From: an uncultured Myxococcales bacterium
Lineage (GTDB): Bacteria; Myxococcota_A; Polyangia; Palsa-1104; JAEUJZ01
Reading direction: 5' to 3'
NCBI GenBank assembly: GCA_964460115.1
Contig: CAYWPR010000110.1
Location: 1-17,937 of the forward strand
Length of the DNA stretch: 17,937 bases
Shown in pieces: positions 1 through 14,614 of this stretch (position 1 is its first letter; every line of letters starts with the position of its first letter). A program made the translations under genes and the position numbers. The notes below the pieces were generated by a model that was given only the letters and a program-made list of their open reading frames with translations, ran no database searches and was not told the DNA's origin.

Positions 1-980
1 TAAAGCCACGGTGGCGGACGATTTCCCGACGATGGCGTGCGCACATTGCCAGAAATGACGTTGTGGCACTGCTCGGCCAGCGTCTTGCCTAAAAATGGCG
101 GCATTCCACAAACCGCCTCGAAAAGCGCAATGCAGAAACTAAATTGATCAGTTCGTCCGTCTGTGGTCTTGCCGCGAAATTGCTCCGGAGACATATATCG
201 CGGAGTTCCCATCAAGGCTCCGGACTGCGTCAATGGAGCGCTTAAGGGCTGCGTTTCTCCGATTCTGTTTAAAATATTTGAAGAAACTCCGGAAACTCCG
301 GAATGTGCGGAAGCTTCGGAAATTTGTGTGGCTGCAAGAGCTGAGGAAGGGTCGGCCGCGCTGCCTTCTGCCTCCGGCGGGGGCCCGGGAATCTGAAGTT
401 TTTGAATGTCGATGCCGGCGCTTGAATCTCGTCGCTCGACATCGCGGGCCAAGCCAAAATCCATGACCCGGGCGCGTCCATCTTTGCCCACAAGCACGTT
501 ATCCGGTTTGAAGTCGCGATGGATGAGCCCGGCGGCGTGGGCGGCGGCAAGTCCGCAGCCTGCTTGATGGAAAATCTCCAGAATTTCATTGCGCGTGCGC
601 GGTTTTTCCTTCAACCAATCGCCCAGCGTGCCGCCTTCGACAAATTCCATAGCGACAAAGACCTGGTCAAAGGCCGTGCCGACGTCAAACACCGAGATGA
701 CATTGGGATGGGCCAGCCGGGCCATGGCTTGGGCCTCGCGCAAAAGGCGCACCCGTCCTAGTGAATCGTCGGCCGAGGAGCTTTTATGACGCAAAAGCTT
801 GATGGCCACCTTGCGGTTTAGCTCCGGATCATAGGCTGCGTAGACGACGCCCATGCCTCCGGCTCCAAGCCGGCTAAGCACCAAGTATCGGCCGATGCTG
901 GCGCCGCGCGGCAGGGCATCACTAGTCACGGCCGTATTCTTCGCATCGGACTTGGAGGGAGAGGGCTGCGTGATAGACAT
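1..980 (-). CDS. Hanks-type Ser/Thr protein kinase, partial (start at 980; C-terminal part continues beyond window start)
   Basis: Reverse-strand translation from ATG at 978-980 gives MSITQPSPSKSDAKNTAVTSDALPRGASIGRYLVLSRLGAGGMGVVYAAYDPELNRKVAIKLL (Gly-rich loop GAGGMG and VAIK lysine). It continues with HRDFKPDNVL (catalytic loop), MDFGLAR (DFG) and GTPRYMSPEQ (APE-like). Frame stays open to position 3, so the 3-prime end is outside the window; the track omits it because it runs off the edge. Confidence 0.85.
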   Translation of the reverse strand, partial: MSITQPSPSKSDAKNTAVTSDALPRGASIGRYLVLSRLGAGGMGVVYAAYDPELNRKVAIKLLRHKSSSADDSLGRVRLLREAQAMARLAHPNVISVFDVGTAFDQVFVAMEFVEGGTLGDWLKEKPRTRNEILEIFHQAGCGLAAAHAAGLIHRDFKPDNVLVGKDGRARVMDFGLARDVERRDSSAGIDIQKLQIPGPPPEAEGSAADPSSALAATQISEASAHSGVSGVSSNILNRIGETQPLSAPLTQSGALMGTPRYMSPEQFRGKTTDGRTDQFSFCIALFEAVCGMPPFLGKTLAEQCHNVISGNVRTPSSGNRPPPWL

Positions 981-1137
981 CCAATCTATTATCTTACTAA
1001 AAGCTGCGCGACGACGGGCATTCATAAGGAGGCGCTCGACGCTCAGCATGCGTTGGGAATGCTGGCCAAATTCACTGCGGAAGATTCGCTGCGGAAGATC
1101 CGCTATGCTGAGTTTGGGCGTATCGCCTTTTGTCACA
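981..1137. promoter_or_regulatory. Divergent intergenic region between kinase gene (-) and secreted-protein gene (+); presumed to hold both promoters
   Basis: Non-coding gap between two divergently oriented starts (980 minus, 1138 plus). No specific -35/-10 or operator recognised; assignment is by position only. Confidence 0.3.
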
Positions 1138-1698
1138 ATGCCAGGACTTTTGCGTGTGCTTTTGTTTTTACTTTTGTGCTGGCCAGCCGCGGCTACTGCG
1201 CAGTCGCCGCAATTGCCACACGGCAAATGGCAGCTTGTCGAGTCTTCGGGCGAGGAAATCTGCGTGGAAGTTCTTGAGGACTTTCGGCTGCGTCTGACCT
1301 TTCGCAGCGCCGGATCGGACGATTGGAAACCAATTGTTATAGGTGGTACCTATCGCATCACCGCGAACAAGTTTGGTTCCTTTCACGCCGAGATGAAGAT
1401 TCAGGAAATTCGCCAAAAAGGGATTTCGCGCTGTCGAAAATATGTCGTAGACAACGAGCTGCCGGAGACCACTCAGCTTGGAGTGAAGATGCAGCCGGGT
1501 CAGATTTTGCGCCTGACGTTTCATTTCGCCTGCGCCGACCGAAAAGAGCACCTGCAGCTATGCCTGCATCAAACCGAGACCGAAAAAACGCCTCGAGTGA
1601 TCTGTAAAGATTTTCAGCAAGAAAATGCTTCCTGCCGCAGCCGGTCGGCAAGCGGGCCGGCGATCGACGGCAGCTTGCTCAACCGTCCGCCGAAGTGA
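1138..1698 (+). CDS. Small secreted hypothetical protein (cleavable signal peptide, 6 Cys in mature part)
   Basis: Track ORF 853..1698 overlaps the kinase start on the other strand. The in-frame ATG at 1138 gives MPGLLRVLLFLLLCWPAAATAQSP, a textbook signal peptide with an A-x-A cleavage site, so I truncate to 1138. No family recognised for the mature protein. Confidence 0.55.
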   Translation: MPGLLRVLLFLLLCWPAAATAQSPQLPHGKWQLVESSGEEICVEVLEDFRLRLTFRSAGSDDWKPIVIGGTYRITANKFGSFHAEMKIQEIRQKGISRCRKYVVDNELPETTQLGVKMQPGQILRLTFHFACADRKEHLQLCLHQTETEKTPRVICKDFQQENASCRSRSASGPAIDGSLLNRPPK

Positions 1699-1702
1699 TC
1701 GA

Positions 1703-2479
1703 ATGGGGCGCGGCAGGCAGTTCCTTTTTGTTGTCGGTCGGCAGCTTCGGCGTGGGACCTCATTCTTATGGCGCAGGCGCAAGGCCCTGGCTGCGGTCTT
1801 TACGCGGCGCCGCAGAATCCTTTGGCGGCTTTGCGTCCTTTGCGCTGTGCTTGGTGTGTTGACCGTGGGCCTTAGCAGCCATGTCGTGGGCCGGGCTGCG
1901 CAAGGCCGCCTTTTTGATCTTGAAACCGCGCCGTCTCGGCAAGTCGCCATTGTGTTTGGCGCCGGAGTATTTCCCAACGGTACTTTGACCGCCCCTTTGC
2001 AGGATCGAGTGTGGACGGCGGTGCAGCTTTACCGTTTGGGCAAAGTGCGCAAGCTCCTCATGAGCGGCGACAACGGCCAAACAAGCTACGACGAGCCGAC
2101 GGCAATGCGCGAGTATGCCGTAGCAAAGGGCATACCGCTTGCCGACGTCGCGCTCGACTATGCGGGTTTTCACACCTACGACACTTGCTATCGCGCCCGC
2201 GAGGTATTTGCCGTAAAAAGCGCGACGCTTATCACCCAAGCCTATCATCTGCCGCGTGCGCTTTTTACCTGTCAATCTCTAGGCATTGACGTCATCGGCA
2301 TTCCCGCGGATAGGCACAGCTATCGCCGCTACCTTTGGTATCTTTTGCGCGAGCAAATCTCGCGCGCGCGGGCCTACTTTCAAGTGCGAGTTTTTCGTCC
2401 GCGCCCGCGCTTTTTGGGACCGCAAATTCCCATCGCCGCTGCCACATCGCGCAATTTCTTCGTAAATTCCACGGGTTAG
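1703..2479 (+). CDS. DUF218 domain protein (SanA/ElyC/YdcF family)
   Basis: Track ORF 1625..2479 trimmed to the in-frame ATG at 1703, 4 nt after the upstream stop. An N-terminal hydrophobic helix is followed by VAIVFGAGV...LYRLGKVRKLLMSGDNGQTSYDEPTAMREYAVAKGIP...DYAGFHTYDTCYRAREVF, matching the DUF218/SanA core pattern (G-x-G ... SGG/SGD ... E ... DT). Confidence 0.7.
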   Translation: MGRGRQFLFVVGRQLRRGTSFLWRRRKALAAVFTRRRRILWRLCVLCAVLGVLTVGLSSHVVGRAAQGRLFDLETAPSRQVAIVFGAGVFPNGTLTAPLQDRVWTAVQLYRLGKVRKLLMSGDNGQTSYDEPTAMREYAVAKGIPLADVALDYAGFHTYDTCYRAREVFAVKSATLITQAYHLPRALFTCQSLGIDVIGIPADRHSYRRYLWYLLREQISRARAYFQVRVFRPRPRFLGPQIPIAAATSRNFFVNSTG

Positions 2480-2512: not shown

Positions 2513-3373
2513 ATGAAAGCCTCGACAAGGTTCGCGCCAGCTGACATGCAGAAAACAGGCAGTTGCACCTATGTTTTTTGCGTCACCAAGGGGCAAGCGC
2601 AAGCACCGGCAGGCAGTGGTTTTGCGCCCGACAGCCCGCTGGAATATGTGGTTGCGGAAGATTTGGCAGCGCTGACCTGCCGCGTTTCGCTTGACGAGTG
2701 GACGGGAAAAGACGCCGAAGCGCGGCTTGGCGATTTGCAATGGCTGGGACCACGGGCCGTGCAGCACGAGGCGGTCATTGAAGCAGCGCTGGCGCTGGCG
2801 CCGGTTTTGCCGCTGCGCTTTGGCTGTTTGTTTTCGTCTGCCGCCGCCGTGCAGAACTGGCTTTTGATCTGGCGTGATCAAATTGCCGATTTTCTCAACG
2901 ATATCGCCGACCGCGAAGAGTGGTCGCTAAAAGGCTTTTTGGATGTGCCGCGAGCGGAAGCGGCGCTTTTGGCCAAGGATCCGCGCTTTTCTGCGCTACC
3001 GGCTTCGCCAGGTGCGCGGTATCTGCGCGAACAAAAGCTGCGTCAGGAAATTGCTCGCTCGGTGCGCGTATGGGCCCGCGAGCACGAGCAAGCGGCGCTC
3101 GACGCGCTTTCGGCGCTGGTTCAAAAATCGCGTTCTTTGCGCGCCATCAGCGGCGAACTTTCTGGTCGCAGCGAAGAAGCCGTGTTTCATCGGGCGCTGC
3201 TTGTGCCGCGCCCCTGCCACGCCGAACTTTTGCAGCACATTGAGCCGCTGCAAAAAAACCTGGCAGGGCAGGGACTGCTGCTGGAACTTTCCGGACCCTG
3301 GCCGCCGTACAATTTCTGTCCGACGCTTGCGCCTTCTGCACCTGCGCAAACGCTCGGCAAAAGTGACGCCTAA
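2513..3373 (+). CDS. gvpF: Gas vesicle protein GvpL/GvpF family (paralog 1)
   Basis: N-terminus TYVFCVT...LEYVVAEDLAALTCRVSLDEW, central VLPLRFGCLF and C-terminal LSGPWPPYNF match GvpL/GvpF family hallmarks (YxYGV, LAAVVS-like, LPMRFG, GPWPPYSF). An alternative start at ATG 2546 (MQKTGSCTYVF) is equally plausible. Confidence 0.8.
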   Translation: MKASTRFAPADMQKTGSCTYVFCVTKGQAQAPAGSGFAPDSPLEYVVAEDLAALTCRVSLDEWTGKDAEARLGDLQWLGPRAVQHEAVIEAALALAPVLPLRFGCLFSSAAAVQNWLLIWRDQIADFLNDIADREEWSLKGFLDVPRAEAALLAKDPRFSALPASPGARYLREQKLRQEIARSVRVWAREHEQAALDALSALVQKSRSLRAISGELSGRSEEAVFHRALLVPRPCHAELLQHIEPLQKNLAGQGLLLELSGPWPPYNFCPTLAPSAPAQTLGKSDA

Positions 3374-3391
3374 GCGGCTGCTTGGCGAAAC

Positions 3392-4153
3392 ATGACAAAG
3401 CCCGCTTTTGACCACTGGCTGCTTTGCTGTGTGACTTCCGCTGCGGTCTGCGCCGATGGCGCCGAACTGGCCGATTTGCCGCCCGGGGCTTTTGGCGTAC
3501 GCTGCCGCGGTTTGGCGGCCGGGCCCTTGTTTGGCGTTGCGGCACCGCTTTGTGGCGCTCGGCAAATTGCGCAGCCAACGGCAGAAGATTTGCTCGCCTA
3601 CAGCCGAGTCGTAGACCTTGTGCATGCGCGACATACTGCCGTTCCCATCCGTTACGGCAGTACGTTTGGCAGCGATGCGGCAATTCGTACCTATCTTCAT
3701 GAAAACGCCGCACATTACGAGCGTCTGCTTCAGCAGTTTGTCGACCGAGTCGAAGTCGCCGTACGCACCGCATTTTCTGCCGAGATCGCGCAATCGCTGC
3801 CGTCCCTCGAAAATTCCGCTCCGCGAATTTCCGCCGGGAGCACAGGCACTGCCTATTTGCGTCGCCTGCAAGCGCAGCAGGAAAAAATGCGTGCTACAGC
3901 CGATGCGGCAGCCCGTCAAGGCGAACAGATTTACGCCGCCCTGGCACCGGGCGGATGCCCGCATCGAGTAGAAACGCGCACCGACAACCCCGGCGGAGTC
4001 ATTCGTGACATCGCCGTTAGCTTTTTGCTGAAACGCGACGCCGTGTCGGAATTTCGCCGCCGCGTGGAAGAACTGCAGCAAAAAGCGCAGCGCCCGCTGC
4101 GCTTTTTGGGACCGTTTGCGCCCTATAGCTTCGCCGAGCTTGCACCGCCCTAA
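3392..4153 (+). CDS. gvpL: Gas vesicle protein GvpL/GvpF family (paralog 2, more divergent)
   Basis: N-terminal WLLCCVTSA, then LLAYSRVVDL, VPIRYGSTF and C-terminal LGPFAPYSFAEL, the same family architecture as paralog 1. Calling it gvpL rather than gvpF is arbitrary. Confidence 0.75.
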   Translation: MTKPAFDHWLLCCVTSAAVCADGAELADLPPGAFGVRCRGLAAGPLFGVAAPLCGARQIAQPTAEDLLAYSRVVDLVHARHTAVPIRYGSTFGSDAAIRTYLHENAAHYERLLQQFVDRVEVAVRTAFSAEIAQSLPSLENSAPRISAGSTGTAYLRRLQAQQEKMRATADAAARQGEQIYAALAPGGCPHRVETRTDNPGGVIRDIAVSFLLKRDAVSEFRRRVEELQQKAQRPLRFLGPFAPYSFAELAPP

Positions 4154-4271
4154 TTCGAATAACGAAAACAGCCGTTCCTATTTAAAAGACGTTTTATTAT
4201 TGTAATGATAAATTCATTATTTCGCGATCCTGCATCAAGGCTGCGCATCGCGCTTGTTAAAGGCCAAAGCA
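4154..4271. promoter_or_regulatory. AT-rich island inside the gvp cluster, likely internal promoter/operator for gvpF3-arsA-gvpM
   Basis: A sharp GC drop (taattcgaataacgaaaacagccgttcctatttaaaagacgttttattattgtaatgataaattcattattt) in an otherwise >60% GC locus. It contains TTATTATT at 4194-4201 and a 5-bp inverted repeat AATGA-N5-TCATT at 4204-4218. AAAGG lies 9 nt before ATG 4272. Confidence 0.35.
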
Positions 4272-5027
4272 ATGACCCAAAGCAGCGAACAGTCGGGGGG
4301 CGAGTACATTTATGCGCTGGTCCAAAATGACGGACCGAAAACGCTTGGGGCCATCGGCATTGATGGCGCCGAGGTACGGCGAATTGCAGTCGGCGAGCTA
4401 GCGGTCTTCATCAGCCGCATTGCTCGGCCGCGCATTCGTCCCGAGCGGCGAAATTTGGCCGCGCACAACGCCGTGCTGAAACAAGCCATGGCAAGCGGCA
4501 CGGTTTTGCCCGTCGCCTTTGGCATCATCGCGCAGAACGAGGATGCCGTTCGCGTCGCACTTTTGACGAACCAGCTCGATTTGCAGGCGCAGTTTGCCAA
4601 AGTCGCCAATAAGGTCGAGATGGGTTTGCGGGTGCTGTGGGACGTGCCCAATGTTTTTGAGTATTTCGTCGGCGTGCATCCCGAACTGCGCGCCGCCCGC
4701 GATGCCCTTTCCGATCCGCGGCAGCCGCGCCGCGACGAAATGATCGAGCTTGGCCAACTATTCGATCGAATTCTGAATTTCGAGCGCGAGCGCCACTTCG
4801 AGCGCATTAGCGAGCTTTTCGAAAAGCGCGGTTTTGAGACGCTGCGCAATGCCACGCGCAGCGAACGTGAGGTGCTAAACCTCGCCTGCCTGATTTCGCG
4901 CGACGCGCAAACCGATTTCGAAAACGCCGTCACCGCCGCTGCCGCCGATTTCGACAACAACTACACATTTGATTTCAACGGGCCCTGGGCACCGCATCAC
5001 TTCGTGGCGCTGAACCTCAAACTGTAG
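4272..5027 (+). CDS. gvpF: Gas vesicle protein GvpL/GvpF family (paralog 3)
   Basis: Track ORF 4254 uses a TTG start; I prefer ATG 4272 (MTQSSEQSGGEYIYALV). GEYIYALV...GELAVFISRI...VLPVAFGII...NGPWAPHHFV are typical GvpF/L motifs. Confidence 0.8.
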   Translation: MTQSSEQSGGEYIYALVQNDGPKTLGAIGIDGAEVRRIAVGELAVFISRIARPRIRPERRNLAAHNAVLKQAMASGTVLPVAFGIIAQNEDAVRVALLTNQLDLQAQFAKVANKVEMGLRVLWDVPNVFEYFVGVHPELRAARDALSDPRQPRRDEMIELGQLFDRILNFERERHFERISELFEKRGFETLRNATRSEREVLNLACLISRDAQTDFENAVTAAAADFDNNYTFDFNGPWAPHHFVALNLKL

Positions 5028-5036
5028 TGGGGCGGC

Positions 5037-6995
5037 ATGGCGCATTTGCCGGCATTTCTCTTTCGCGAAGATTTGCAGCTCATCCTTTTTTCCGGCAAAG
5101 GCGGAGTCGGCAAGACGACCTGTGCGGTGGCCAGCGCGGTACATATGGCGCTCGGTGCGCCGAAGTTTCGCTTTCTGCTCGTCTCGGTGGATCCGGCGCA
5201 CTCGGTGCGCGATTGCCTCGGCGAAGATACGCCGCCGCAAAATCTCGACGTCATCGAGCTTGATGCACCGGCTTTGCTGCGTGAATTTCTGACCGCGCAC
5301 GAAGCCACCCTGCGCGAGATTGCTCGGCGCAGCACCTTTTTTGACGAGGCAGATATCGCGCATTTTGCTGCGCGTTCGCTTCCCGGAATGGACGAGCTGT
5401 TTGCCTTTTTGCGCATCGCCGAGTGGGTGCAAAAGGGGGCCTATCAAACGATTCTGGTCGATACAGCGCCAGCCGGTCATACCCGTCGGCTGCTTGAAAT
5501 GCCGCAGCTTTTGCGGGCCTGGACAAAAGCGTGTGACGGACTGCTTGCCAAGCATCGCTACATGGTGCAGCAGTTTCGCGGAGCCTATAAGTCCGATGCG
5601 ACCGATCAATTGCTTGTGGATTTGGCGCAATTTGCCAAGCAGGTCGATGCGCTGCTGCGTTCTGCGGCCAGCTTGGTGGTGCCGGTGCTTGTGCCAGAGC
5701 CGCTGTGCTTGGAAATCAGCCTGAACTTTGTGAATGAACTGCGCGCGCAGGGCATAAAGCTCGGGCCGCTTGTCATAAATCGGCTGCGCAACGCGGAAGG
5801 CTGTGCAAGCTGCGCGCTTGTGGCCCTGGCGCAAAAGCAAGCCTTGGCCGCGCGCCAAACTCAGCTTGCCGACGATGGCGGCGGCTGGGGCCTGCCGCTT
5901 TTGGCAAAAGAAGTGCGCGGTCTGGAACATTTGCGAAATTTTTGGCAGCAGGGCGAACCATATTCTTTCATCGCGCCGCCCGTAAGTACCAAGCTGCCGA
6001 ACTCGATCTCGAGCCCGCGTATCGATATCGAAATCGAAGTGCAAAATCCCGCGGCGCTGCCGCCCCAAACTCAGCGCGTGTTGCTTTTTGCCGGCAAGGG
6101 CGGCGTTGGCAAAACCACATTGGCCTGCGCCACGGCGCTGTTTCTGTCCGCGACCGCGCAGCGCTCGGTCCTGCTAATTTCGACCGACCCGGCGCATTCG
6201 CTGTCCGCGGCGCTGAACGTAGCCATCAGCGCAACCGACACAAGGCTGCCGACCTGGCCGCGGCTCACGGTTGTAGCGCCCGAGCCACAAGCAAAATGGC
6301 AAGCTTGGCGCGACGAATATGCCGACGAGATATCGGCTTTTTTTCGCAAACGCCTGGGCCACGTAGACTTGGCGTTTGATCGGCAGGCCCTGGAGCAACT
6401 GATGGATCTGACACCGCCCGGGCTCGACGAAATCGTCTCGCTGACTCGCGTTGGCGAATTGCTGGCGGAAAATAAGTACGAGCACATCGTGCTGGATACC
6501 GCGCCCACCGGCCACCTGCTGCGGCTTTTAGAGCTGCCGGCCGTGCTCGACGATTGGCTAAAGGGCATTTTCGCCATTCTATTGAAGCAGCAACCGGCGC
6601 TGCGCCTGCCGCGGCTTAGCGACCGTTTGATTGGGTTGTCCAAACAACTCAAGCGGCTGCGCAAAGTCCTTTGGGACGCGCAGCAAAGCAGCTTGTATGC
6701 GGTCAGCATCGCGACTTGTCTGGCGCATGAAGAGACGCTGGACCTTTTGCACGCTTGTCGCCGCTTGTCGCTGCATGTAGGCGGCGTATTTGTCAACCAG
6801 TGCACGCCCGTCGCGAATTGCAAACTGTGCACGGCGCTTTTTCAGCGCGAAACCCAGGTCAACACGGCGCTACAGCGCGAAGTGGCAAACGTGCCGCTGA
6901 CCTGTATCACAGCGGGCACGCCGCCCCTCGGCCTGGCGGCGCTTTTTGCGCTGGGGCAAAAACTATATACATTGGGAGACTCGCTTGGCCGCTGA
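5037..6995 (+). CDS. ArsA/Get3-family anion-transporting-type ATPase, tandem duplicated (two ArsA halves), embedded in gvp operon
   Basis: Both halves carry the deviant Walker A GKGGVGKTT (FSGKGGVGKTT at aa ~19 and FAGKGGVGKTT at aa ~355). Both carry the ArsA A-loop (VSVDPAHSV; ISTDPAHSL) and the ArsA/Get3-specific DTAP(A/T)GH..RLLE signature (DTAPAGHTRRLLEMP; DTAPTGHLLRLLELP). ATG 5037 lies 10 nt after the gvpF3 stop with GGGG upstream. Confidence 0.85.
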   Translation: MAHLPAFLFREDLQLILFSGKGGVGKTTCAVASAVHMALGAPKFRFLLVSVDPAHSVRDCLGEDTPPQNLDVIELDAPALLREFLTAHEATLREIARRSTFFDEADIAHFAARSLPGMDELFAFLRIAEWVQKGAYQTILVDTAPAGHTRRLLEMPQLLRAWTKACDGLLAKHRYMVQQFRGAYKSDATDQLLVDLAQFAKQVDALLRSAASLVVPVLVPEPLCLEISLNFVNELRAQGIKLGPLVINRLRNAEGCASCALVALAQKQALAARQTQLADDGGGWGLPLLAKEVRGLEHLRNFWQQGEPYSFIAPPVSTKLPNSISSPRIDIEIEVQNPAALPPQTQRVLLFAGKGGVGKTTLACATALFLSATAQRSVLLISTDPAHSLSAALNVAISATDTRLPTWPRLTVVAPEPQAKWQAWRDEYADEISAFFRKRLGHVDLAFDRQALEQLMDLTPPGLDEIVSLTRVGELLAENKYEHIVLDTAPTGHLLRLLELPAVLDDWLKGIFAILLKQQPALRLPRLSDRLIGLSKQLKRLRKVLWDAQQSSLYAVSIATCLAHEETLDLLHACRRLSLHVGGVFVNQCTPVANCKLCTALFQRETQVNTALQREVANVPLTCITAGTPPLGLAALFALGQKLYTLGDSLGR

Positions 6996-7086
6996 CGTAA
7001 CTGATCTCAGCTTGACCGATGATGGAAAAAGTCATGCCGTTTCGAATACGACGCGCCACGAAGCGACTCGAGACGAAGAAGAACGC

Positions 7087-7308
7087 ATGTCTTTGTGCGA
7101 ACTGCTCGATCGAGTTTTAAACAAAGGCGTGGTGGTTCGCGGCGAAGTGGTCATTACCGTCGCCGATATCGAGCTACTATATTTGGGTTTGGAACTTATT
7201 CTGTGTGCCACCGAGACGGCGCGCCAGGCCGGTGTGCGCCTGCCAAGCGATATGAACGCAGCGCGGTTTTTGCCCAATCCGCAGGTCGTCAAGGTTCCTT
7301 CGCGCTAA
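7087..7308 (+). CDS. gvpM: Small gas vesicle structural-family protein (GvpA/GvpJ/GvpM family; GvpM-like)
   Basis: MSLCELLDRVLNKGVVVRGEVVITVADIELLYLGLELILCATETARQ matches the GvpA-family core (SL.E.LDR.LDKGVV...V..IELL....R..IAS.ET). VVITVADIELL resembles the GvpM/J type rather than GvpA DAWVRVSLVGIELL. The track ORF starts at TTG 6946 inside arsA; I prefer ATG 7087. An in-frame TTG near 7010 is a possible longer alternative. Confidence 0.7.
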   Translation: MSLCELLDRVLNKGVVVRGEVVITVADIELLYLGLELILCATETARQAGVRLPSDMNAARFLPNPQVVKVPSR

Positions 7309-7714
7309 GGCGCTCTTCCATGCGGCGCAAGCTTGCCTCCATGGCTCGCAGCCGCGCTTCAACCGGATCTGCGGGCCGCGCGACTTCATCTGCTGCTGGC
7401 GCTGCAGCTTTCGCCGGCGCCGCCGCCGGCAGTTCGCTTTGCGGGACGCTTTGAGCAAGCTGATCTTCGACTTGGGCCAGCCGGGCCATCGTGGACCAAT
7501 GCGGGTCGGTTTTCCACCAGTCCATGCCCATGGCCATGGCGCGTTCGACCGAACAGACGACTAGACGAATCTGAATGGTCAAAAGCTCAATTTCGACGAG
7601 CTTTATTTTGATGTCGCCGGCGATGACGATGCCTTTGTCGAGCACTCGCTCTAAAATATCGGCCAGCGTCGAGCCACGCGTCGAGTTGGTAATCGTTGTG
7701 GGACGGTTAGTCAT
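7289..7714 (-). CDS. gvpJ: GvpJ-like gas vesicle protein (GvpA-family core plus C-terminal Ala/Pro-rich extension)
   Basis: MTNRPTTITNSTRGSTLADILERVLDKGIVIAGDIKIKLVEIELLTIQIRLVVCSVERAMAMGMDWW is a GvpA/J-family core. The following ~60-aa low-complexity tail is typical of GvpJ. The 3-prime end overlaps the convergent gvpM-like gene by 20 nt (7289-7308). Confidence 0.8.
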   Translation of the reverse strand: MTNRPTTITNSTRGSTLADILERVLDKGIVIAGDIKIKLVEIELLTIQIRLVVCSVERAMAMGMDWWKTDPHWSTMARLAQVEDQLAQSVPQSELPAAAPAKAAAPAADEVARPADPVEARLRAMEASLRRMEERLSAKEP

Positions 7715-7740
7715 GGGCGAGCGGCTCCAGCTTGCGGGCG

Positions 7741-8271
7741 CTATAGCAGTTTGCCAAGCGGCCCGAGATCCAGATTGAGGTCTTCTTCACGCAGGCCGAA
7801 GGCTTCGCGCAGGCGGTGTAGCTCTTCGGCTTGGCGCATTAGAGTCAGGCCGAGTTGTTCGATTTGTTCATCGCTTAAAGTTCCCGATTCGACGCGGCGC
7901 AGGGCCTGCTTTTCCAGCAAATCGTGCAGCAGTTTGACGAGCGTTAGCACCAATTGCCCCAGTCCATTTTTGACGCTGTCGGGATCGATATTGATGCGGC
8001 GCGACGGTCCTAATGCAGGCTCAGCCGGAGCGGTTTTTGCTGCCGCTGTTTTCGTCGACTTTTTTGCCGCTTTGGCCGAATTTGTCGGCTTTTTCGTCGA
8101 TTTCGCCGGTTTCGTCGTCAGCTTCGGCATCGACTTCGTCGGCTTCGTCGATTTCATCGTCGGCTTCGTCGATTTCATCGTCGGCTTCGTCGTCGATTTC
8201 GTCATGAGGCAGTTCTTCGTCATCCTCAACTGCCGCTTCTTCGTCCCCAGATGCGGCTTGCTCCAACTCAT
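7741..8271 (-). CDS. gvpK: Gas vesicle protein GvpK with Lys/Thr-rich repetitive N-terminal extension (start uncertain: ATG at 8271, 8223, 8205, 8178, 8157 or 8130)
   Basis: The C-terminal 86 aa are RINIDPDSVKNGLGQLVLTLVKLLHDLLEKQALRRVESGTLSDEQIEQLGLTLMRQAEELHRLREAFGLREEDLNLDLGPLGKLL, the conserved GvpK pattern. The only in-frame ATGs lie upstream of the gvpG stop (8021), so any ATG start overlaps gvpG in another frame. The maximal ORF adds 90 aa containing TKPTMKS repeats. Confidence 0.7.
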   Translation of the reverse strand: MSWSKPHLGTKKRQLRMTKNCLMTKSTTKPTMKSTKPTMKSTKPTKSMPKLTTKPAKSTKKPTNSAKAAKKSTKTAAAKTAPAEPALGPSRRINIDPDSVKNGLGQLVLTLVKLLHDLLEKQALRRVESGTLSDEQIEQLGLTLMRQAEELHRLREAFGLREEDLNLDLGPLGKLL

Positions 8272-8479
8272 CCAGCCGGTCTAGCAGCAGCTTTTCTTCA
8301 TGATCAAACTCTGACTCAGAGATCTGATTTGTCTCGAGCAGCATATAAAGTTCGCGCAAACGGTCTTTGATGCGGTCGGATTCTGCTGCTTGTTCTTCCT
8401 CTGCAGCTTGCGCGATTTCTTTCAAAATCCAGACCACGCCTTTGATGGGTGCGGTCAGTAGATCATCAAGAATAAACAT
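8021..8479 (-). CDS. gvpG: Gas vesicle protein GvpG with long poly-acidic repeat C-terminal tail
   Basis: MFILDDLLTAPIKGVVWILKEIAQAAEEEQAAESDRIKDRLRELYMLLETNQISESEFDHEEKLLLDRLDEL matches the GvpG family consensus (MF..DDLL..P..G..WI...I...AE...L.EL...LE.G.I.E.E....E..LL.RL). It is followed by a DEIDEAD-type acidic repeat tail (aa ~80-152) ending at the TGA at 8021-8023. Confidence 0.8.
   Translation of the reverse strand: MFILDDLLTAPIKGVVWILKEIAQAAEEEQAAESDRIKDRLRELYMLLETNQISESEFDHEEKLLLDRLDELEQAASGDEEAAVEDDEELPHDEIDDEADDEIDEADDEIDEADEVDAEADDETGEIDEKADKFGQSGKKVDENSGSKNRSG
8086..8210. repeat. Tandem 21-bp repeat (gtcggcttcgtcgatttcatc, about 3 clean copies at 8138-8203 plus degenerate copies 8086-8137)
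   Basis: Direct repeats read in the sequence; the unit length is a multiple of 3. On the minus strand the repeat encodes DEIDEAD in the gvpG frame and TKPTMKS in the gvpK frame. It also generates the plus-strand shadow ORFs 7751..8284 and 8013..8207. Confidence 0.85.
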
Positions 8480-8519
8480 GGACTTTCAGGCCGCGCCCCT
8501 TGGCCACGGGCTTTGCGCA

Positions 8520-8600
8520 GTGCAAGTGGGCGTATTTTCACAGGAAATATTATGTAAATAATAACACTAATAAATGGATTGGAAAAGTGCTGCCTGTCCT
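8520..8600 (-). promoter_or_regulatory. AT-rich island upstream of gvpG; candidate promoter for gvpG-gvpK-gvpJ
   Basis: Minus-sense sequence ttattagtgTTATTATTtacataatatttcctgtgaaaatacgcc contains TTTACA and, 17 nt later, an A/T-rich block. It shares the octamer TTATTATT with the 4154-4271 island. Assignment is by position and composition only. Confidence 0.3.
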
Positions 8601-8604
8601 GAAA

Positions 8605-8660
8605 AAGGACGCAGAAAGCCCCGTAAGCGTTTGCTCACGGGACTTTACGGGTAGGACTGC
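8605..8660 (-). terminator. Possible intrinsic terminator of the OmpA-family gene
   Basis: The minus-strand RNA would form CCCGT-gagcaaacgctt-ACGGG (or a 7-bp CCCGTAA/TTACGGG stem) followed by GCTTTCTGCGTCCTTTTTC. The U-rich run is interrupted, so this is weak. Confidence 0.3.
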
Positions 8661-8693
8661 GAAGGAAATTAAAAGCGGGAAGGAGTGAAAAGC

Positions 8694-10568
8694 TTACTCG
8701 CCCTGATTCGTGCGGGCGGTGCCTTCCACGATGCGGAACTCGACGCGGCGGTTTTTGGCGCGGCCGGCCGCGGTCGTATTGGGTGCGACCGGTTGATCCG
8801 GGCCAAAGCCCTGCGATTCTAGACGATCTGCTTCGATGCTGTGCGCGATGAGCCAAGTCATAACGCTGCGCGCTCGGCGCTGCGACAGATCGATATTGTA
8901 GATGTGCACACCCTGGCTGTCCGTATGTCCTTCGATGCGGACCCGCTTGATGTTGGGCGTAGCAATGAGCGCGTCGGCCACTGCCTGCAGGACCGGGTAG
9001 CTTTGCGCCAGAATGATGTCCTTATCGAGCGCAAAGAACACCGGCTTGAGGATCACCAGCTTGCCGCCATGAATCTGAACCAGACTTGGGCAGCCGTTCT
9101 TCCGCGGATTGGGATGCGGCGCACCTGGGGTATCCGGACAAGCGTCTACCTTATCGGGGACGGTGTCTTTGTCGCGGTCGGGCAGCGGGCAGCCAATGCG
9201 CTCCGGATCGGGGTGCAGTCCGGAAGGCTCAAAGACGCACTTATCAATGGTGTCTACGTAGCCATCCTTGTCACTGTCGAGAGCCGGACAGCCCAAGCGG
9301 TTCGGATCCGGGGTCGGGCCCATATGCTCATCCGGACACAGGTCCAGCTTGTCGGGTACGCCATCGCGATCGCGATCCGACTCGGGCGGCTGCGGACAGC
9401 CACGGCGCAGCGGATCGGGCGTCGGGCCCATATGCTCGTCGGGGCAGACGTCATCTTGATCGGGCACGCCGTCGCGATCGCGGTCGGCCACTGGCGGACA
9501 GCCGTGGGTGCTGGGAACACCAGTGCGAATGCCGCGTACATCCGGACAAGCATCTTCGCCGTCAGGAATGCCGTCGCCATCGCGATCCGTTTCCTTGGCG
9601 CGCACCGGAGCATAGGCCACGCGCAGCAGCCAGCGGAAGTCAGGATTGCCCGCCTGACGGACAAAGCCAGTGCCAAAGGCCATACCGACCTGAACAAGCT
9701 TGGCGATGTTGTACTGACCGCCGACCAAAGCCGATACGCTGGTGCCAAAGCGCGAAAACGCATCGCGGCCCAGCACCTGGCCAGAGATCATTAATTCCGG
9801 GCCGACCGAGAAGCGTTTCTCTTGATCGAAGTAGGAAGCGGCCAGCGAGAACTGAATTTCCGAACCTACGCCACCCGGGTCGCCAGCATCCGCTGGAACC
9901 ATGGCCGTCGCTTCGGGACGGTAATAGAACCCAAAAGTTCCCGACCACAGCAGCTTGCGCCACACACCGCCCGCGACGAGTCGTGGCAGTATACGCACGC
10001 CCGTGTCGCTGTACGAAGGGGGCACGGCGTTGGGATCACCGGCGCGCAGCGGAATCCATAGATTTAAGCCGAAGCTGATGGACAAAATGTCCTGAAACGG
10101 CTGATTGTAAAGGCGGACCATGGCGCCTAGACGCGGATCGCCAACCGATGCGCCGCTCGAGACCGAGGGCTCGCCCTGGCTCAGAAAGACCACCGGAAGC
10201 GAGGCGGTCAATAGGACACGGTCTAAAAACGACCCGGCCAAATCCAGGTGGCCGATGAACTGATGCTCAATCAGCACGCGTCTTTGAGAAAAAGACCCGT
10301 CGGAGTTTAACGATCCGGCAACAAGCGGCTGGTGCGCATAATCTAGAGTCAGACCAGCGGCAAAATATCGCACCGAGGAGTACCACGGGTGGTCGACCGC
10401 GAAAGACCATTCACCGGCGGCCGTCGGTTCATAGCGGTTAAGTTGGAACCCCTGCGTGGGCGCTTGCTGGGCAAAAGCTGTGCCGCCCACAGACATCGCA
10501 CCCAAAAACAGGGAGAGAATGGAACATCGGAACGAGGATCGCAAAGTCACCCTCCAGTACAGAATCAA
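8694..10568 (-). CDS. OmpA-family outer-membrane protein with thrombospondin type-3 (TSP3) Ca-binding repeats and C-terminal OmpA peptidoglycan-binding domain
   Basis: Signal peptide MILYWRVTLRSSFRCSILSLFLGAMSVGGTAFAQQ, then an N-terminal beta-rich region. Multiple D.DRDG.PD..D.CPD TSP3 repeats follow (ETDRDGDGIPDGEDACPD, ADRDRDGVPDQDDVCPDEHMGPTPDP, SDRDRDGVPDKLDLCPDEHMGPTPDP, DSDKDGYVDTIDKC, DRDKDTVPDKVDACPD). The C-terminus has the OmpA-like motifs IEGHTDSQG...NIDLSQRRARSV...RRVEF. Confidence 0.8.
   Translation of the reverse strand: MILYWRVTLRSSFRCSILSLFLGAMSVGGTAFAQQAPTQGFQLNRYEPTAAGEWSFAVDHPWYSSVRYFAAGLTLDYAHQPLVAGSLNSDGSFSQRRVLIEHQFIGHLDLAGSFLDRVLLTASLPVVFLSQGEPSVSSGASVGDPRLGAMVRLYNQPFQDILSISFGLNLWIPLRAGDPNAVPPSYSDTGVRILPRLVAGGVWRKLLWSGTFGFYYRPEATAMVPADAGDPGGVGSEIQFSLAASYFDQEKRFSVGPELMISGQVLGRDAFSRFGTSVSALVGGQYNIAKLVQVGMAFGTGFVRQAGNPDFRWLLRVAYAPVRAKETDRDGDGIPDGEDACPDVRGIRTGVPSTHGCPPVADRDRDGVPDQDDVCPDEHMGPTPDPLRRGCPQPPESDRDRDGVPDKLDLCPDEHMGPTPDPNRLGCPALDSDKDGYVDTIDKCVFEPSGLHPDPERIGCPLPDRDKDTVPDKVDACPDTPGAPHPNPRKNGCPSLVQIHGGKLVILKPVFFALDKDIILAQSYPVLQAVADALIATPNIKRVRIEGHTDSQGVHIYNIDLSQRRARSVMTWLIAHSIEADRLESQGFGPDQPVAPNTTAAGRAKNRRVEFRIVEGTARTNQGE
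9100..9590. repeat. TSP3-repeat-encoding DNA, including a ~107-bp near-identical direct duplication (gggcccatatgctc... at ~9317 and ~9424)
   Basis: Repeated nucleotide blocks visible directly in the sequence. They account for the long spurious plus-strand ORFs 8841..9794 and 9086..10078. Confidence 0.6.
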
Positions 10569-12969: not shown

Positions 12970-14598
12970 TTAAGCTTCCGACATACAGCCGTAGCGGTAG
13001 TCGGTGGGCGGCAGGAAGTTCTCTTTTATGGTGCGCAGCGACGTCCAGCGCAAAAGATTGAGGGGCGATCCGGCCTTGTCATTGGTTCCGGAAGCGCGTG
13101 CGCCGCCAAAGGGTTGCTGGCCAACCACAGCTCCGGTTGGCTTGTCGTTGATGTAGAAATTGCCAGCGGACTGGCGCAAACGCGAAAGGCTGCGCGAGAT
13201 CGCCTGACGATCGCGTGCGAACACGGCTCCCGTAAGCGCATAGGGCGAAGTGCGATCGACAAGCTCCAGGGCTGTCTCAAAGTCGCGGTACAGGTGCACC
13301 GTGACCACCGGGCCAAAGATCTCTTCGCGGAGTAGTTTGTGCTGCGGATCGTCCGCCAGAATCAAAGTCGGGCGAATGAAGTAACCCTCGCTATCATTTC
13401 CGGTTCCACCGCTTATAAGGCGCGCGCCCTGGCCATCGGCCAAGCGAATGTAGGAGTTTATCGATTGGTAGGCCCGGCGGTCGATGACCGCCCCCATGAA
13501 GTTGCGAAAGTCACAGACATCGCCAACCGCAAGCGTGTTGATTTCGGCACCCAGGCGAGAAAGCAGTCGGCGCCCCATGGTTTCCGGCAGGTAAACCCGC
13601 GAAGCCGCCGAGCACTTTTGTCCCTGATATTCATAACCGCCGCGCAAAATGGCGGTCGCTAGGGAATCCTCATCCGCGCTTTCGTGCGCCAAAATGAAGT
13701 CTTTGCCGCCGGTTTCGCCAACGATGCGGGGATAGGTACGATACCGGCCCATATTGCCGGCCACCGTTTTCCAGATGTGGTTAAAAACACTCGTCGAACC
13801 GGTAAAATGGACTCCTGCCAAATCCGGATGGCACAGGGCGACATCGCCGAGTTCGGCTGCCGGTCCGTTTACCAGATTAATCACGCCCGGCGGCAGTCCG
13901 GCTTCGAGCAGCAATTCCTGAATCAGATAAGCGCTCAGAATGGCGGTGGGAGCTGGCTTCCAAACCACGACATTGCCCATCAATGCCGGTGCCGTTGCCA
14001 AGTTGCCAGCGATGCTCGTGAAGTTAAAGGGGGTGACGGCAAAGACAAAGCCCTCGAGCGGGCGCAGGTCCACCTGATTCCAGAGATCTTTGGGACTATA
14101 GGGCTGCTCGCTTTCCAGCAAGCGGCGCAGGTAGTAGACATTCCAGCGCCAGAAATCGATAAGCTCGCAGGCGGCATCGATCTCGGCCTGCAGACAAGTC
14201 TTAGACTGGCCCAGCATGGTTGCGGCGTTTAAACGGGCGCGCCACGGCCCAGCCAGCAAATTGGCCGCTCGCAAAAAGACGGCAGCGCGTTGTTCCCAGG
14301 GCAGAGCGGCCCAGCCGGCGGCTGCATGCAAGGCCGCGGTAATGGCTTGGTTCATCTCGGCGGCGCCCCCTTGATGGGCTTGGCCAAGCACATGGCGATG
14401 GCGGTGTGGGGCGGAAAGCGGCAACAGATTGCCGCTGTGCACGCGCGCTTCGCCTATATAAAGCGGAACCTCGGCCGTCTGCGACTGCATGCTGCTTAAT
14501 GCGGCCTTTAATGCGGCGCGTTCCGTGCTGCTCGGCAAGTAGCTGTAGACGGGTTCGTTTTGCGGTTCGGAATAGCGGGCGATGGTGGCAAACGTCAT
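12970..14598 (-). CDS. pruA: L-glutamate gamma-semialdehyde (delta-1-pyrroline-5-carboxylate) dehydrogenase, aldehyde dehydrogenase superfamily
   Basis: ALDH motifs FTGSTSVF, IVGETGGKDFI (catalytic Glu region) and EYQGQKCSAASR (catalytic Cys in the P5CDH-type GQKCSA context). The track ORF extends to 14670; I prefer the ATG at 14596-14598 (MTFATIARY), which avoids overlapping exbD. The symbol could equally be rocA. Confidence 0.8.
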   Translation of the reverse strand: MTFATIARYSEPQNEPVYSYLPSSTERAALKAALSSMQSQTAEVPLYIGEARVHSGNLLPLSAPHRHRHVLGQAHQGGAAEMNQAITAALHAAAGWAALPWEQRAAVFLRAANLLAGPWRARLNAATMLGQSKTCLQAEIDAACELIDFWRWNVYYLRRLLESEQPYSPKDLWNQVDLRPLEGFVFAVTPFNFTSIAGNLATAPALMGNVVVWKPAPTAILSAYLIQELLLEAGLPPGVINLVNGPAAELGDVALCHPDLAGVHFTGSTSVFNHIWKTVAGNMGRYRTYPRIVGETGGKDFILAHESADEDSLATAILRGGYEYQGQKCSAASRVYLPETMGRRLLSRLGAEINTLAVGDVCDFRNFMGAVIDRRAYQSINSYIRLADGQGARLISGGTGNDSEGYFIRPTLILADDPQHKLLREEIFGPVVTVHLYRDFETALELVDRTSPYALTGAVFARDRQAISRSLSRLRQSAGNFYINDKPTGAVVGQQPFGGARASGTNDKAGSPLNLLRWTSLRTIKENFLPPTDYRYGCMSEA

Positions 14599-14614
14599 GA
14601 TGCGCTTTCTTGAG

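What the first reader, a model, noticed from the sequence alone, without database searches (positions are those of the whole stretch)
2513..8479. Non-canonical gas-vesicle cluster in a genome with myxobacterial hallmarks; gvpN and classical gvpA absent from the window
Eight gvp-family genes form two convergent units: gvpF/L x3, arsA-like and gvpM-like on plus; gvpG, gvpK and gvpJ-like on minus. The neighbours (a MYXO-CTERM-like tail protein, a TSP3-OmpA and a Hanks-type kinase) point to Myxococcota, a group not classically associated with gas vesicles. Neither a GvpA with the canonical [14 protein letters not shown] core nor a GvpN AAA+ protein is inside the window. Either the 73-aa or the 141-aa GvpA-family protein acts as the main shell protein, or the remaining genes lie outside the window.
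Basis: partly seen in the sequence, partly recalled or inferred. Interest (0 to 1): 0.7.

Follow-up and report, generated by a model that had tools for sequence, protein, structure and literature searches.

The report
Accessory half of a gas-vesicle cluster
This is the assembly-gene half of an ordinary, widespread type of gas-vesicle gene cluster in a myxobacterium-like metagenome genome. The shell gene gvpA and the ATPase gene gvpN are most likely on another contig, so there is no sign of a new kind of gas vesicle.

Summary
Positions 2513-8479 carry eight gvp-family genes in two convergent units: three gvpF/L, a two-domain ArsA/Get3-like ATPase and a gvpM/S-like gene on plus; gvpG, gvpK and a gvpJ-like gene on minus. 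No canonical gvpA or gvpN lies anywhere in the 17,937 bases.

The "non-canonical" reading is not supported.
- The window is a whole MAG contig, so absence from it says little about the genome.
- The same eight-gene convergent block recurs in the closest relatives (ArsA 50-56% identical). Where the relative's contig is long enough, gvpN and a canonical 72-aa gvpA sit 3-4 kb beyond gvpG.
- In 21 related loci of 12 kb or more, 18 carry gvpN and 15 carry canonical gvpA. The three without either end too early.
- The two small GvpA-family proteins are orthologues of accessory paralogues that coexist with canonical GvpA in those relatives that extend far enough.
- ArsA homologues in gvp clusters were described in 2010.

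A Myxococcota (Polyangia-like) origin is supported. The complete genome of the cultured myxobacterium Polyangium aurulentum already has an annotated gvp cluster with gvpA and gvpN.

What differs here is gene order. The gvpA-gvpN module is at least 9.4 kb from gvpG, or it has been lost.

Verdict: a new member of a known kind, of low to moderate interest.

The parts
2513..3373 (+). gvpF/L paralogue 1 (286 aa; the NCBI call is 275 aa)
   Evidence: Pfam GvpL_GvpF 8.9e-48. 55% identical to the first gvpF/L gene of L003. The independent Logan contig L001 links it to the upstream DUF218 gene.
3392..4153 (+). gvpF/L paralogue 2 (253 aa)
   Evidence: Pfam GvpL_GvpF 7.6e-33. 37-39% identical to the second F/L gene of L003 and L104.
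4254..5027 (+). gvpF/L paralogue 3, the most GvpF-like (257 aa from TTG 4254; 251 aa in the Logan call)
   Evidence: Pfam GvpL_GvpF 5.1e-58. Its best NCBIfam hit is cyanobacterial GvpF at 101 bits, below the cutoff of 350. 64% identical to L003.
5037..6995 (+). Two-domain ArsA/Get3/TRC40-family ATPase (652 aa). Both P-loops (GKGGVGKTT) and both DTAPxGH switch motifs are intact, and each half carries a CxxC.
   Evidence: Pfam ArsA_ATPase x2, 1.3e-91. TIGR00345 GET3_arsA_TRC40 scores 304.6 bits against a cutoff of 135. The arsenical-pump equivalog TIGR04291 scores 162 against a cutoff of 650. Invariant motifs in alignment A1. Best PDB hit is Chlamydomonas ArsA1 5zme, 2.4e-42. The CxxC aligns with the CxxC of the Get3 homologue 7spz.
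6985..7308 (+). gvpM/gvpS-like GvpA-family paralogue. Probably 107 aa from TTG 6985, overlapping the arsA stop by 11 nt; minimal version 73 aa from ATG 7087.
   Evidence: Pfam Gas_vesicle 5.6e-16. All NCBIfam GvpA, GvpJ and GvpM models score below cutoff. 89% identical to the L003 orthologue. Conserved N-terminal extension and a Shine-Dalgarno-like GGGAGA. Logan contig L087 aa.
7289..7714 (-). gvpJ-like GvpA-family paralogue (141 aa): a GvpA-like core, then GMDWW..DP, then an Ala/Pro-rich segment and a helical C-terminal tail. Its 3' end overlaps the gvpM/S-like gene by 20 nt, convergently.
   Evidence: Pfam Gas_vesicle 7.5e-17. The NCBIfam GvpA subfamily model scores 52.8 against a cutoff of 100. 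About 50% identical to canonical GvpA over ~50 aa, but 73% over its full length to the L003 orthologue.
7741..8130 (-). gvpK. The ORF is open to 8271 and the last possible start is ATG 8130. The GvpK domain is encoded by 7741-7998.
   Evidence: Pfam GvpK 1.5e-32 over aa 92-176 of the ORF. No ATG, GTG or TTG lies between 8130 and the domain. Read by eye in the output (not computed), the domain closely matches L003 GvpK.
8021..8479 (-). gvpG (152 aa) with a long acidic C-terminal tail
   Evidence: Pfam GvpG 2e-15 over aa 7-71. 76-79% identical to L003, L104 and L106 over the domain.
8136..8192 (.). Perfect 21-bp tandem repeat (2.7 copies) inside the gvpG/gvpK overlap. It is read in two frames, as the acidic GvpG tail and the Lys-rich GvpK N-terminus.
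   Evidence: Tandem Repeats Finder score 114, 100% matches. Translations.
8558..8585 (-). Weak sigma-70-like promoter match upstream of gvpG, a possible promoter of the minus-strand unit
   Evidence: 9 of 12 hexamer matches with a TG extension. The number of such sites in the region is no higher than in shuffled sequence, so this is only suggestive.

Best explanation
Positions 2513-8479 are the accessory (assembly) half of a gas-vesicle gene cluster in a Myxococcota, Polyangia-like, genome. The cluster belongs to a widespread type whose usual colinear order is cdc48-F-F-gvpA-gvpN-F-G-arsA-M-K-J. In this clade it has been rearranged into two convergent operons: gvpF/L x3-arsA-gvpM/S on plus, facing gvpG-gvpK-gvpJ on minus. 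The structural and ATPase module (gvpA, gvpN and a CDC48-type AAA protein) has been split off.

In the closest relatives that module sits 3-4 kb beyond gvpG. In this organism it is not within 9.4 kb of gvpG or 2.5 kb of the first gvpF/L. It therefore most likely lies on another contig of the fragmented MAG.

Inferred mechanism. GvpF/L proteins bind and nucleate GvpA-family proteins. GvpG and GvpK join the nucleation complex. The GvpJ-like and GvpM/S-like proteins are minor shell or initiation components. The Get3-like two-domain ATPase probably shields and delivers the very hydrophobic GvpA-family proteins, by analogy with Get3 handling tail-anchored proteins. The shell itself would be built from a canonical GvpA encoded elsewhere, with GvpN supporting growth.

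Shown here: gene identities, orthology, architecture, the comparative location of gvpA and gvpN, and taxonomy. Inferred only: that gvpA and gvpN exist elsewhere in this genome, that vesicles are made, and the chaperone role of the ArsA-like protein.
For: Gene identities come from Pfam and NCBIfam.

The same eight-gene convergent block occurs in L003 and L104/L105 (ArsA 56% identical), L106 (54%) and L108 (53%), and with only two F/L genes in L107 (50%). In L003, L104 and L105, gvpN and a 72-aa canonical gvpA follow a RicinB-like gene beyond gvpG. L106 ends inside that RicinB-like gene, L107 ends in gvpK, and L108 has only 2.6 kb beyond gvpG.

Of 21 loci of 12 kb or more holding ArsA (>=38% identity) plus a GvpJ-like gene, 18 have gvpN and 15 have canonical gvpA. 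The three without either are truncated.

By matching contig lengths, ArsA and GvpN homologues also appear to share contigs of 18,699 and 154,493 bp (this is an inference).

The window equals a whole 17.9-kb contig.

All eight genes are intact, with lengths like their orthologues. The small proteins are 89% and 73% identical to L003, which argues for purifying selection.

Literature: two GvpA-related genes (J and M/S) are standard in gvp clusters, and A, J and M cannot replace each other (PMC9501494). ArsA homologues in gvp operons are reported in four phyla (PMC2963123).

Polyangium aurulentum has a full gvp cluster with gvpA and gvpN.
Against: No gvpA or gvpN from this organism was found. The NCBI contig is not in the position index, and the GvpN candidates looked up (P0274, P0254) come from other samples.

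Where relatives place gvpN and gvpA, beyond gvpG, this contig has 9.4 kb of unrelated genes: TSP3-OmpA, a DUF11 protein, P5C dehydrogenase, ExbD and ExbB. Loss of the module therefore cannot be excluded.

No independent contig spans the gvpG-OmpA junction at 8479-8694.

The window has 58.5% GC against 65-69% in the closest relatives. It is a divergent lineage, and inference from relatives is correspondingly weaker.

No experimental evidence exists for gas vesicles in any myxobacterium, as far as the paper library shows.
Confidence: 0.75

Rival explanations
1. Relic cluster. The organism has lost the gvpA-gvpN module. The accessory block is a non-functional or recently orphaned remnant, or has been put to some other use.
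For: gvpA and gvpN are missing from the position they hold in the closest relatives, and unrelated genes occupy 9.4 kb beyond gvpG. gvp clusters are known to be partly degenerate in some non-buoyant strains, for example the title finding of PMC7204071 listed.
Against: All eight reading frames are intact and of orthologue-like length. The small proteins are 89% and 73% identical to those of a relative whose ArsA is only 56% identical. No frameshifts or premature stops were seen. A MAG contig of 17.9 kb cannot show genome-wide absence.
Confidence: 0.15
2. Truly non-canonical system. The GvpJ-like or GvpM/S-like protein forms the shell, and the ArsA/Get3-like ATPase replaces GvpN.
For: Both small proteins carry the PF00741 core and align to solved GvpA structures (8gbs and 7r1c: 1e-9 for the 141-aa protein, 9e-5 for the 73-aa version). 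An ATPase is present in the block. No gvpA or gvpN is on the contig.
Against: Orthologues of both small proteins and of the ArsA-like ATPase coexist with canonical GvpA and GvpN in the relatives that extend far enough. Both proteins score below the cutoff of every NCBIfam GvpA model. In haloarchaea GvpA, GvpJ and GvpM cannot substitute for each other (PMC9501494).
Confidence: 0.04
3. Assembly or binning artefact. The contig is chimeric at the gvpG-OmpA junction, or the gvp block belongs to a different organism from the myxobacterial-looking flank.
For: No independent contig spans 8479-8694. The 8001-9000 window has the lowest GC in the contig, 0.543.
Against: GC is even across the contig at 0.54-0.64, with no step at the cluster borders. 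Independent Logan assemblies reproduce DUF218-F1-F2-F3 (L001) and F3-ArsA-M-J-K (L087, from a second run). Both the right flank (P5C dehydrogenase) and the gvp block itself point to Myxococcota.
Confidence: 0.05

Closest known systems
ArsA-containing gvp clusters (Castillo & Saier 2010, PMC2963123: Pelodictyon luteolum, Polaribacter irgensii, Anabaena/Nostoc, an acidobacterium). Environmental examples fetched here: L004, L007 (Gemmatimonas), L008 (Thiohalocapsa), L113-L185.
   Same: The same gene families are present: gvpF/L copies, gvpG, a two-domain ArsA homologue of about 650 aa without ars genes nearby, gvpM-like, gvpK and gvpJ-like. The local order ArsA then gvpM-like is kept.
   Different: Those clusters are colinear on one strand and have gvpA and gvpN between the F/L genes. 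Here the G-K-J part is inverted into a convergent unit, all three F/L genes are contiguous, and gvpA and gvpN are not on the contig.
Closest relatives with the same convergent block: L003 (Logan SRR19038524), L104/L105 (SRR10663364/62), L106 (ENA ERZ26165376), L107 (JGI 3300006092), L108 (JGI Ga0075158).
   Same: The layout is identical: F/L x3-ArsA-M facing J-K-G. Identities are ArsA 50-56%, GvpM/S-like 67-89%, GvpJ-like 53-73% and GvpG 76-79%.
   Different: L003 and L104/L105 carry gvpN-gvpA 3-4 kb beyond gvpG, and in L003 a cdc48-like AAA gene follows further on (L104 ends before that point). The window has TSP3-OmpA, a DUF11 protein and P5C dehydrogenase there instead. The relatives have 65-72% GC against 58.5% here.
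Polyangium aurulentum gvp cluster (complete genome CP079217.1; locus L188)
   Same: It is a cultured member of Myxococcota (Polyangia). It has gvpF/L x3, gvpG, gvpM-like, gvpK and gvpJ-like genes, 43-68% identical to the window proteins apart from the second gvpF/L at 29%.
   Different: Its cluster is compact, with canonical gvpA (94% identical to the L003 GvpA) and gvpN in the middle, and it has no ArsA homologue.
Get3/TRC40/ArsA1 tail-anchored-protein targeting ATPases (PDB 5zme Chlamydomonas ArsA1; 7spz, 2woj Get3)
   Same: The ArsA/Get3 fold family is met (TIGR00345 above cutoff). It is a two-domain pseudo-dimer like ArsA1. The CxxC sits at the Get3 zinc-site position in both halves.
   Different: No membrane receptor genes (Get1/2-like) lie nearby. 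The presumed client would be a GvpA-family protein of a protein-shelled organelle rather than a tail-anchored membrane protein. The function is untested.

Membership tests
Gas-vesicle (gvp) gene cluster | Major shell protein GvpA with the canonical core (about 70 aa, ...[14 protein letters not shown]...) | tested here: not met
   tblastn of three canonical GvpA sequences against the window hits only the two paralogues, at 47-56% identity. Both score below the NCBIfam GvpA cutoffs. The feature is met in relatives L003, L004, L008, L104 and L188.
Gas-vesicle (gvp) gene cluster | GvpN AAA+ ATPase | tested here: not met
   tblastn of two GvpN sequences gives only P-loop-level matches (E >= 0.02) inside the ArsA-like gene. 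No AAA_5 hit appears in any window ORF scanned.
Gas-vesicle (gvp) gene cluster | GvpF/L, GvpG and GvpK accessory proteins | tested here: met
   Pfam GvpL_GvpF x3, GvpG and GvpK all score above their gathering scores.
Gas-vesicle (gvp) gene cluster | Two GvpA-related minor paralogues (J, and M or S) | tested here: met
   There are two PF00741 proteins. They are positional and sequence orthologues of the M-like and J-like genes of relatives. The naming convention follows PMC9501494.
Gas-vesicle (gvp) gene cluster | Formation of gas vesicles by the organism | not testable with these tools
   The source is an uncultured MAG. No paper in the library links myxobacteria to gas vesicles.
Canonical GvpA (NCBIfam NF006874 / NF046092) | Score above the curated cutoff | tested here: not met
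   The 141-aa protein scores 52.8 against a cutoff of 100 and 45.7 against 112. The plus-strand paralogue (scanned as the 120-aa ORF 6946-7308) scores 26.6 against 100 and 23.0 against 112.
GvpJ / GvpM (NCBIfam NF046090 / NF046091, haloarchaeal models) | Score above the curated cutoff | tested here: inconclusive
   The 141-aa protein scores 47.5 against a GvpJ cutoff of 125. The plus-strand paralogue (scanned as the 120-aa ORF 6946-7308) scores 36.3 (J) and 34.7 (M), both below cutoff. These models are haloarchaea-specific. The J-like and M/S-like assignment rests on synteny and on alignment to relatives.
Arsenical pump-driving ATPase ArsA (TIGR04291 equivalog) | Score above the equivalog cutoff; ars operon context (arsB, acr3, arsD or arsR) | tested here: not met
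   It scores 162 bits against a cutoff of 650. No ars genes are in the window. E. coli ArsA 1f48 is a weaker PDB hit than Chlamydomonas ArsA1.
GET3/TRC40/ArsA transport-energizing ATPase subfamily (TIGR00345) | Score above the cutoff; P-loop GKGGVGKTT; DTAPTGH switch II | tested here: met
   It scores 304.6 bits against a cutoff of 135, with two matched stretches. Both motifs are invariant in both halves of alignment A1.
MYXO-CTERM sorting-signal proteins | Match of the C-terminal tail to the NCBIfam MYXO-CTERM model | tested here: not met
   For the 723-aa protein the only NCBIfam hit at E <= 0.1 is the DUF11 repeat. The tail (GC...hydrophobic...RRRR) only resembles the class.
Phylum Myxococcota (taxonomic placement of the contig) | Housekeeping proteins closest to Myxococcota | tested here: met
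   For the P5C dehydrogenase, a 75%-identical cluster holds MBL9005201.1 [Myxococcales bacterium]; Polyangia score 71% and Myxococcales 69%; Gemmatimonadaceae and Vicinamibacterales score 63-64%. This rests on one marker, so the support is moderate. The TSP3-OmpA protein gives a partial hit to the myxobacterial TraB model (207 bits against a cutoff of 700).

The most novel reading that the evidence does not exclude
This Polyangia-like bacterium truly lacks canonical gvpA and gvpN. It builds a gas vesicle, or another protein-shelled body, from the GvpJ-like and/or GvpM/S-like paralogues, with the Get3-like two-domain ATPase as the only dedicated ATPase. The evidence does not exclude this because the rest of the genome could not be inspected.
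Probability: 0.04. Interest if true: 0.8.

Novelty: new member of a known kind. Interest (0 to 1): 0.27.

Why it matters
If the block is functional, it adds to evidence that some Myxococcota could regulate buoyancy. That evidence so far sits only in database annotations, for example Polyangium aurulentum. The phylum is known for surface gliding and predation, and no paper in the library discusses gas vesicles in it.

The clade also shows that the accessory genes and the gvpA-gvpN module can be physically separated and probably regulated apart.

The Get3-like ATPase is a standard part of a very widespread gvp cluster type, yet its role has not been tested since it was noted in 2010. This compact eight-gene block, together with the gvpA-gvpN module of a relative, would be a convenient construct for testing whether it chaperones the hydrophobic GvpA-family proteins.

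None of this depends on the window being unusual. As it stands, the window is an ordinary fragment.

Tried and rejected
1. Extending the contig. Look-ups of window proteins returned only short Logan contigs (1.8-4.1 kb) from SRR8797211 and SRR8797212. The NCBI contig itself is not in the position index. The ArsA-like protein's longest contig is 17,937, so the window is the whole contig.

2. Finding the source genome among GTDB representative genomes. The scan with the ArsA alignment chose the P-loop as its pattern and saturated at 600 rows. It did not return the window's genome. The best hits were a Gemmatimonas MAG (44%) and Thiohalocapsa (40%).

3. Hunting for this organism's gvpN. I searched with the GvpN of L003 and looked up NCBI/Logan candidates. 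P0274 and P0254 come from other samples. The approach is a needle-in-a-haystack search and I dropped it.

4. Cluster-member look-up for organism names of the window's own proteins gave no names or accessions.

5. MYXO-CTERM as a taxonomic marker gave no model hit.

6. Promoter and terminator scan. The counts are no higher than in shuffled sequence. Only a weak promoter-like site lies upstream of gvpG.

7. tRNA and Rfam scans of the window found nothing.

8. The idea that ArsA replaces GvpN is rejected, because both co-occur in the relatives.

9. Recent horizontal acquisition of the block as a compositional island is rejected, because GC is even across the contig.

Full report
**What is in the window**

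The six-frame ORF list and Pfam/NCBIfam scans give a clear gene map.
- A Hanks-type Ser/Thr kinase is on the minus strand and runs off the left end.
- A small secreted protein is at about 1105-1698 (+).
- A DUF218/SanA-like gene is at 1703-2479 (+).

Then come the eight gvp-family genes of the finding:
- three GvpL_GvpF genes at 2513-3373, 3392-4153 and 4254-5027 (+);
- a two-domain ArsA-family ATPase at 5037-6995 (+);
- a PF00741 gene on plus, ending at 7308;
- a 141-aa PF00741 gene at 7289-7714 (-);
- gvpK, within the ORF 7741-8271 (-);
- gvpG at 8021-8479 (-).

Beyond gvpG lie:
- a TSP3-OmpA protein at 8694-10568 (-);
- a 723-aa DUF11/DUF3344 protein at 10665-12836 (-);
- L-glutamate gamma-semialdehyde (P5C) dehydrogenase at 12970-14670 (-);
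- ExbD and ExbB (-);
- a major-vault-protein homologue that runs off the right end (+).

All Pfam E-values for the gvp genes lie between 1e-15 and 1e-91.

**Absence of gvpA and gvpN**

tblastn of canonical GvpA (Anabaena and two relatives) and of two GvpN proteins against all 17,937 bases finds only the two PF00741 paralogues and P-loop-level matches in the ArsA gene.

The window is a whole contig, however. The ArsA-like protein is in the protein collection with a longest contig of exactly 17,937 bases, from NCBI and Logan sources. Every other copy is a 1.8-4.1-kb Logan contig from SRR8797211 or SRR8797212. There is no flank to inspect, and absence from the contig is not absence from the genome.

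**Comparative context**

The closest ArsA homologues (50-56% identity) lie in loci with exactly the same two convergent units. These are L003, L104/L105, L106, L107 (with only two F/L genes) and L108.
- In L003, L104 and L105 the contig continues beyond gvpG. After a RicinB-like gene come gvpN (AAA_5) and a 72-aa gvpA, then an Ala/Pro-rich protein (390 aa in L003). The gvpA sequence is fully canonical: [64 protein letters not shown]... In L003, which extends furthest, a CDC48-type AAA ATPase follows.
- L106 ends inside the RicinB-like gene, L107 ends in gvpK, and L108 has only 2.6 kb beyond gvpG.

More distant loci (ArsA 38-45%) come from many environments and phyla, including Gemmatimonas, Thiohalocapsa and numerous JGI metagenomes. 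They show a colinear cluster: cdc48-F-F-gvpA(-x)-gvpN(-x)-F-G-ArsA-M-K-J.

I counted loci of 12 kb or more that hold ArsA (>=38% identity) and a GvpJ-like gene. Of 21, 18 have gvpN and 15 have canonical gvpA. The three with neither are L106, L107 and L127, and all three are truncated.

The window's block is therefore the accessory part of a common cluster type. The convergent arrangement, with a detached gvpA-gvpN module, is a feature of its clade.

**Identity of the two small proteins**

The 141-aa protein is about 50% identical to GvpA over the ~50-aa core. Over its full length it is 73% identical to the L003 orthologue. The match includes the GMDWW..DP segment and the helical C-terminal tail, which GvpA lacks.

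The plus-strand protein is 89% identical to its L003 orthologue. It most likely starts at TTG 6985, which has GGGAGA 6 nt upstream, gives 107 aa and overlaps the ArsA stop by 11 nt. The extension DVTDLSLTDDG aligns with YVSDLELGPDG in relatives, and an independent gene call gives 107 aa.

Both proteins fall below every NCBIfam GvpA, GvpJ and GvpM cutoff. Both occupy the positions of the M-like and J-like genes in clusters that also have a canonical GvpA.

The 2022 Pfeifer review states that two gvpA-related genes (J and M; B and S in Bacillus; A3 and A2 in Serratia) are standard. It also states that A, J and M have different functions and cannot replace each other (PMC9501494). The idea that one of them is the main shell protein is therefore poorly supported.

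**The ArsA-like ATPase**

It passes the GET3/ArsA/TRC40 subfamily model (304.6 against a cutoff of 135). It fails the arsenical-pump equivalog (162 against 650). No ars genes are nearby.

In an alignment of 21 homologues, both P-loops and both DTAPxGH motifs are invariant. Each half has a conserved CxxC, at C256/C259 and C595/C598. That motif aligns with the CxxC of a Get3 homologue, 7spz. That this CxxC coordinates zinc in Get3 is my recollection, not something tested here.

The best solved relative is Chlamydomonas ArsA1, ahead of E. coli ArsA. From my own knowledge, ArsA1 is a two-domain factor that targets tail-anchored proteins.

Castillo and Saier (2010) already reported ArsA homologues of about 640 aa inside gvp operons of four phyla. 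They proposed that these energise a biogenesis step distinct from that of GvpN (PMC2963123). My inference is a Get3-like holdase and delivery role for the aggregation-prone GvpA-family proteins. This is untested.

**Taxonomy**

The P5C dehydrogenase has unnamed best hits at 73-79%.
- A 75% cluster contains MBL9005201.1 [Myxococcales bacterium].
- Named hits at 71% are Polyangia, and at 69% Myxococcales.
- The next tier, at 63-64%, is Gemmatimonadaceae and Vicinamibacterales.

The GvpN clade of L003 includes a protein named "[Myxococcales bacterium]" (75%). It also includes a cluster (68%) containing WP_248913819.1 from Polyangium aurulentum.

The complete P. aurulentum genome has a compact gvp cluster, F-F-gvpA / gvpN / F-G-M-K-J, with canonical gvpA and gvpN and without ArsA.

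The Myxococcota assignment is thus supported, on one housekeeping marker plus the cluster's own phylogenetic neighbourhood. But gvp clusters in this phylum are already annotated in public genomes, and they are canonical.

I found no paper in the library that discusses gas vesicles in myxobacteria. The MYXO-CTERM claim is not backed by a model hit.

The window's GC (58.5%) is lower than that of its relatives (65-72%) but even across the contig. This argues against a recently acquired island or a chimera.

**What remains open**

In this organism the place where relatives keep gvpN-gvpA is taken by unrelated genes for 9.4 kb. Either the module is elsewhere in the genome, which I favour at about 0.75, or it has been lost (about 0.15).

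The intactness and strong conservation of all eight genes favour a functional system.

I could not find this organism's gvpA or gvpN.

The gvpG-OmpA junction is not covered by an independent contig.

**Verdict**

The interpretation as a non-canonical cluster is not supported. This is a new member of a known, widespread ArsA-containing gvp cluster type, with a clade-specific rearrangement, on a short MAG contig. Interest is low to moderate.

Noticed in passing
window 15886-17937 (+), runs off the right end: A bacterial homologue of the eukaryotic major vault protein (Pfam Vault_3 1e-8, Vault_4 4e-5, MVP_shoulder 3e-6), at least 684 aa and truncated by the contig end. It sits about 7.4 kb from the gvp block. 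No link between the two is implied.
   Followed up: partly
window 8021-8271 (-), repeat at 8136-8192: gvpG and gvpK overlap by at least 110 nt in two reading frames across a perfect 21-bp tandem repeat. This gives an acidic D/E-rich GvpG tail and a Lys-rich GvpK N-terminal extension from the same DNA. No start codon exists for gvpK after 8130. Relatives overlap by only about 17 nt (L003). An independent Logan contig (L087) shows the same open frame up to 8148.
   Followed up: partly
loci L011-L024 and L039 (MAGs of Acidobacteriota, Gemmatimonadota, Rokubacteria and Labilithrix): A second, different ArsA-linked gvp cluster type. ArsA is only about 30% identical, a GvpA-like protein is only about 59% identical to canonical GvpA, and no GvpN lies within 10 kb. 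It recalls the gvpN-less actinomycete-type clusters.
   Followed up: no
L188 (Polyangium aurulentum CP079217.1, 10452860-10473765): A cultured myxobacterium with a complete genome carries a compact gvp cluster: F-F-gvpA / gvpN / F-G-M-K-J. It has canonical gvpA and no ArsA. No paper in the library mentions gas vesicles in this phylum.
   Followed up: partly
L094 (GCA_020051655.1, JAHZTJ010086934.1) 1-2058; window 10665-12836 (-): A homologue (38-39% identity) of the window's 723-aa DUF11/DUF3344 protein lies directly beside a 403-aa protein, gvpA, gvpN and gvpF in another relative. This may be shared chromosomal neighbourhood or a recurrent association. The window protein ends in a Gly-Cys, hydrophobic, RRRR tail that no NCBIfam sorting-signal model recognises.
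   Followed up: no
window 5037-6995 (+): Both halves of the ArsA-like ATPase keep a CxxC (C256/C259 and C595/C598) that is conserved across 21 gvp-linked homologues. It aligns with the CxxC of a Get3 homologue; I recall that this motif coordinates zinc in Get3. The best PDB hit, Chlamydomonas ArsA1, has no cysteines at the aligned positions.
   Followed up: partly
window 853-1698 (+) and 1-1053 (-): The long ORF 853-1698 overlaps the N-terminus of the minus-strand kinase. Its real start is probably at about 1105-1138, just before a signal-peptide-like segment. It has only a weak hit to a Gemmata paralogous family (TIGR03066, E 0.003).
   Followed up: no
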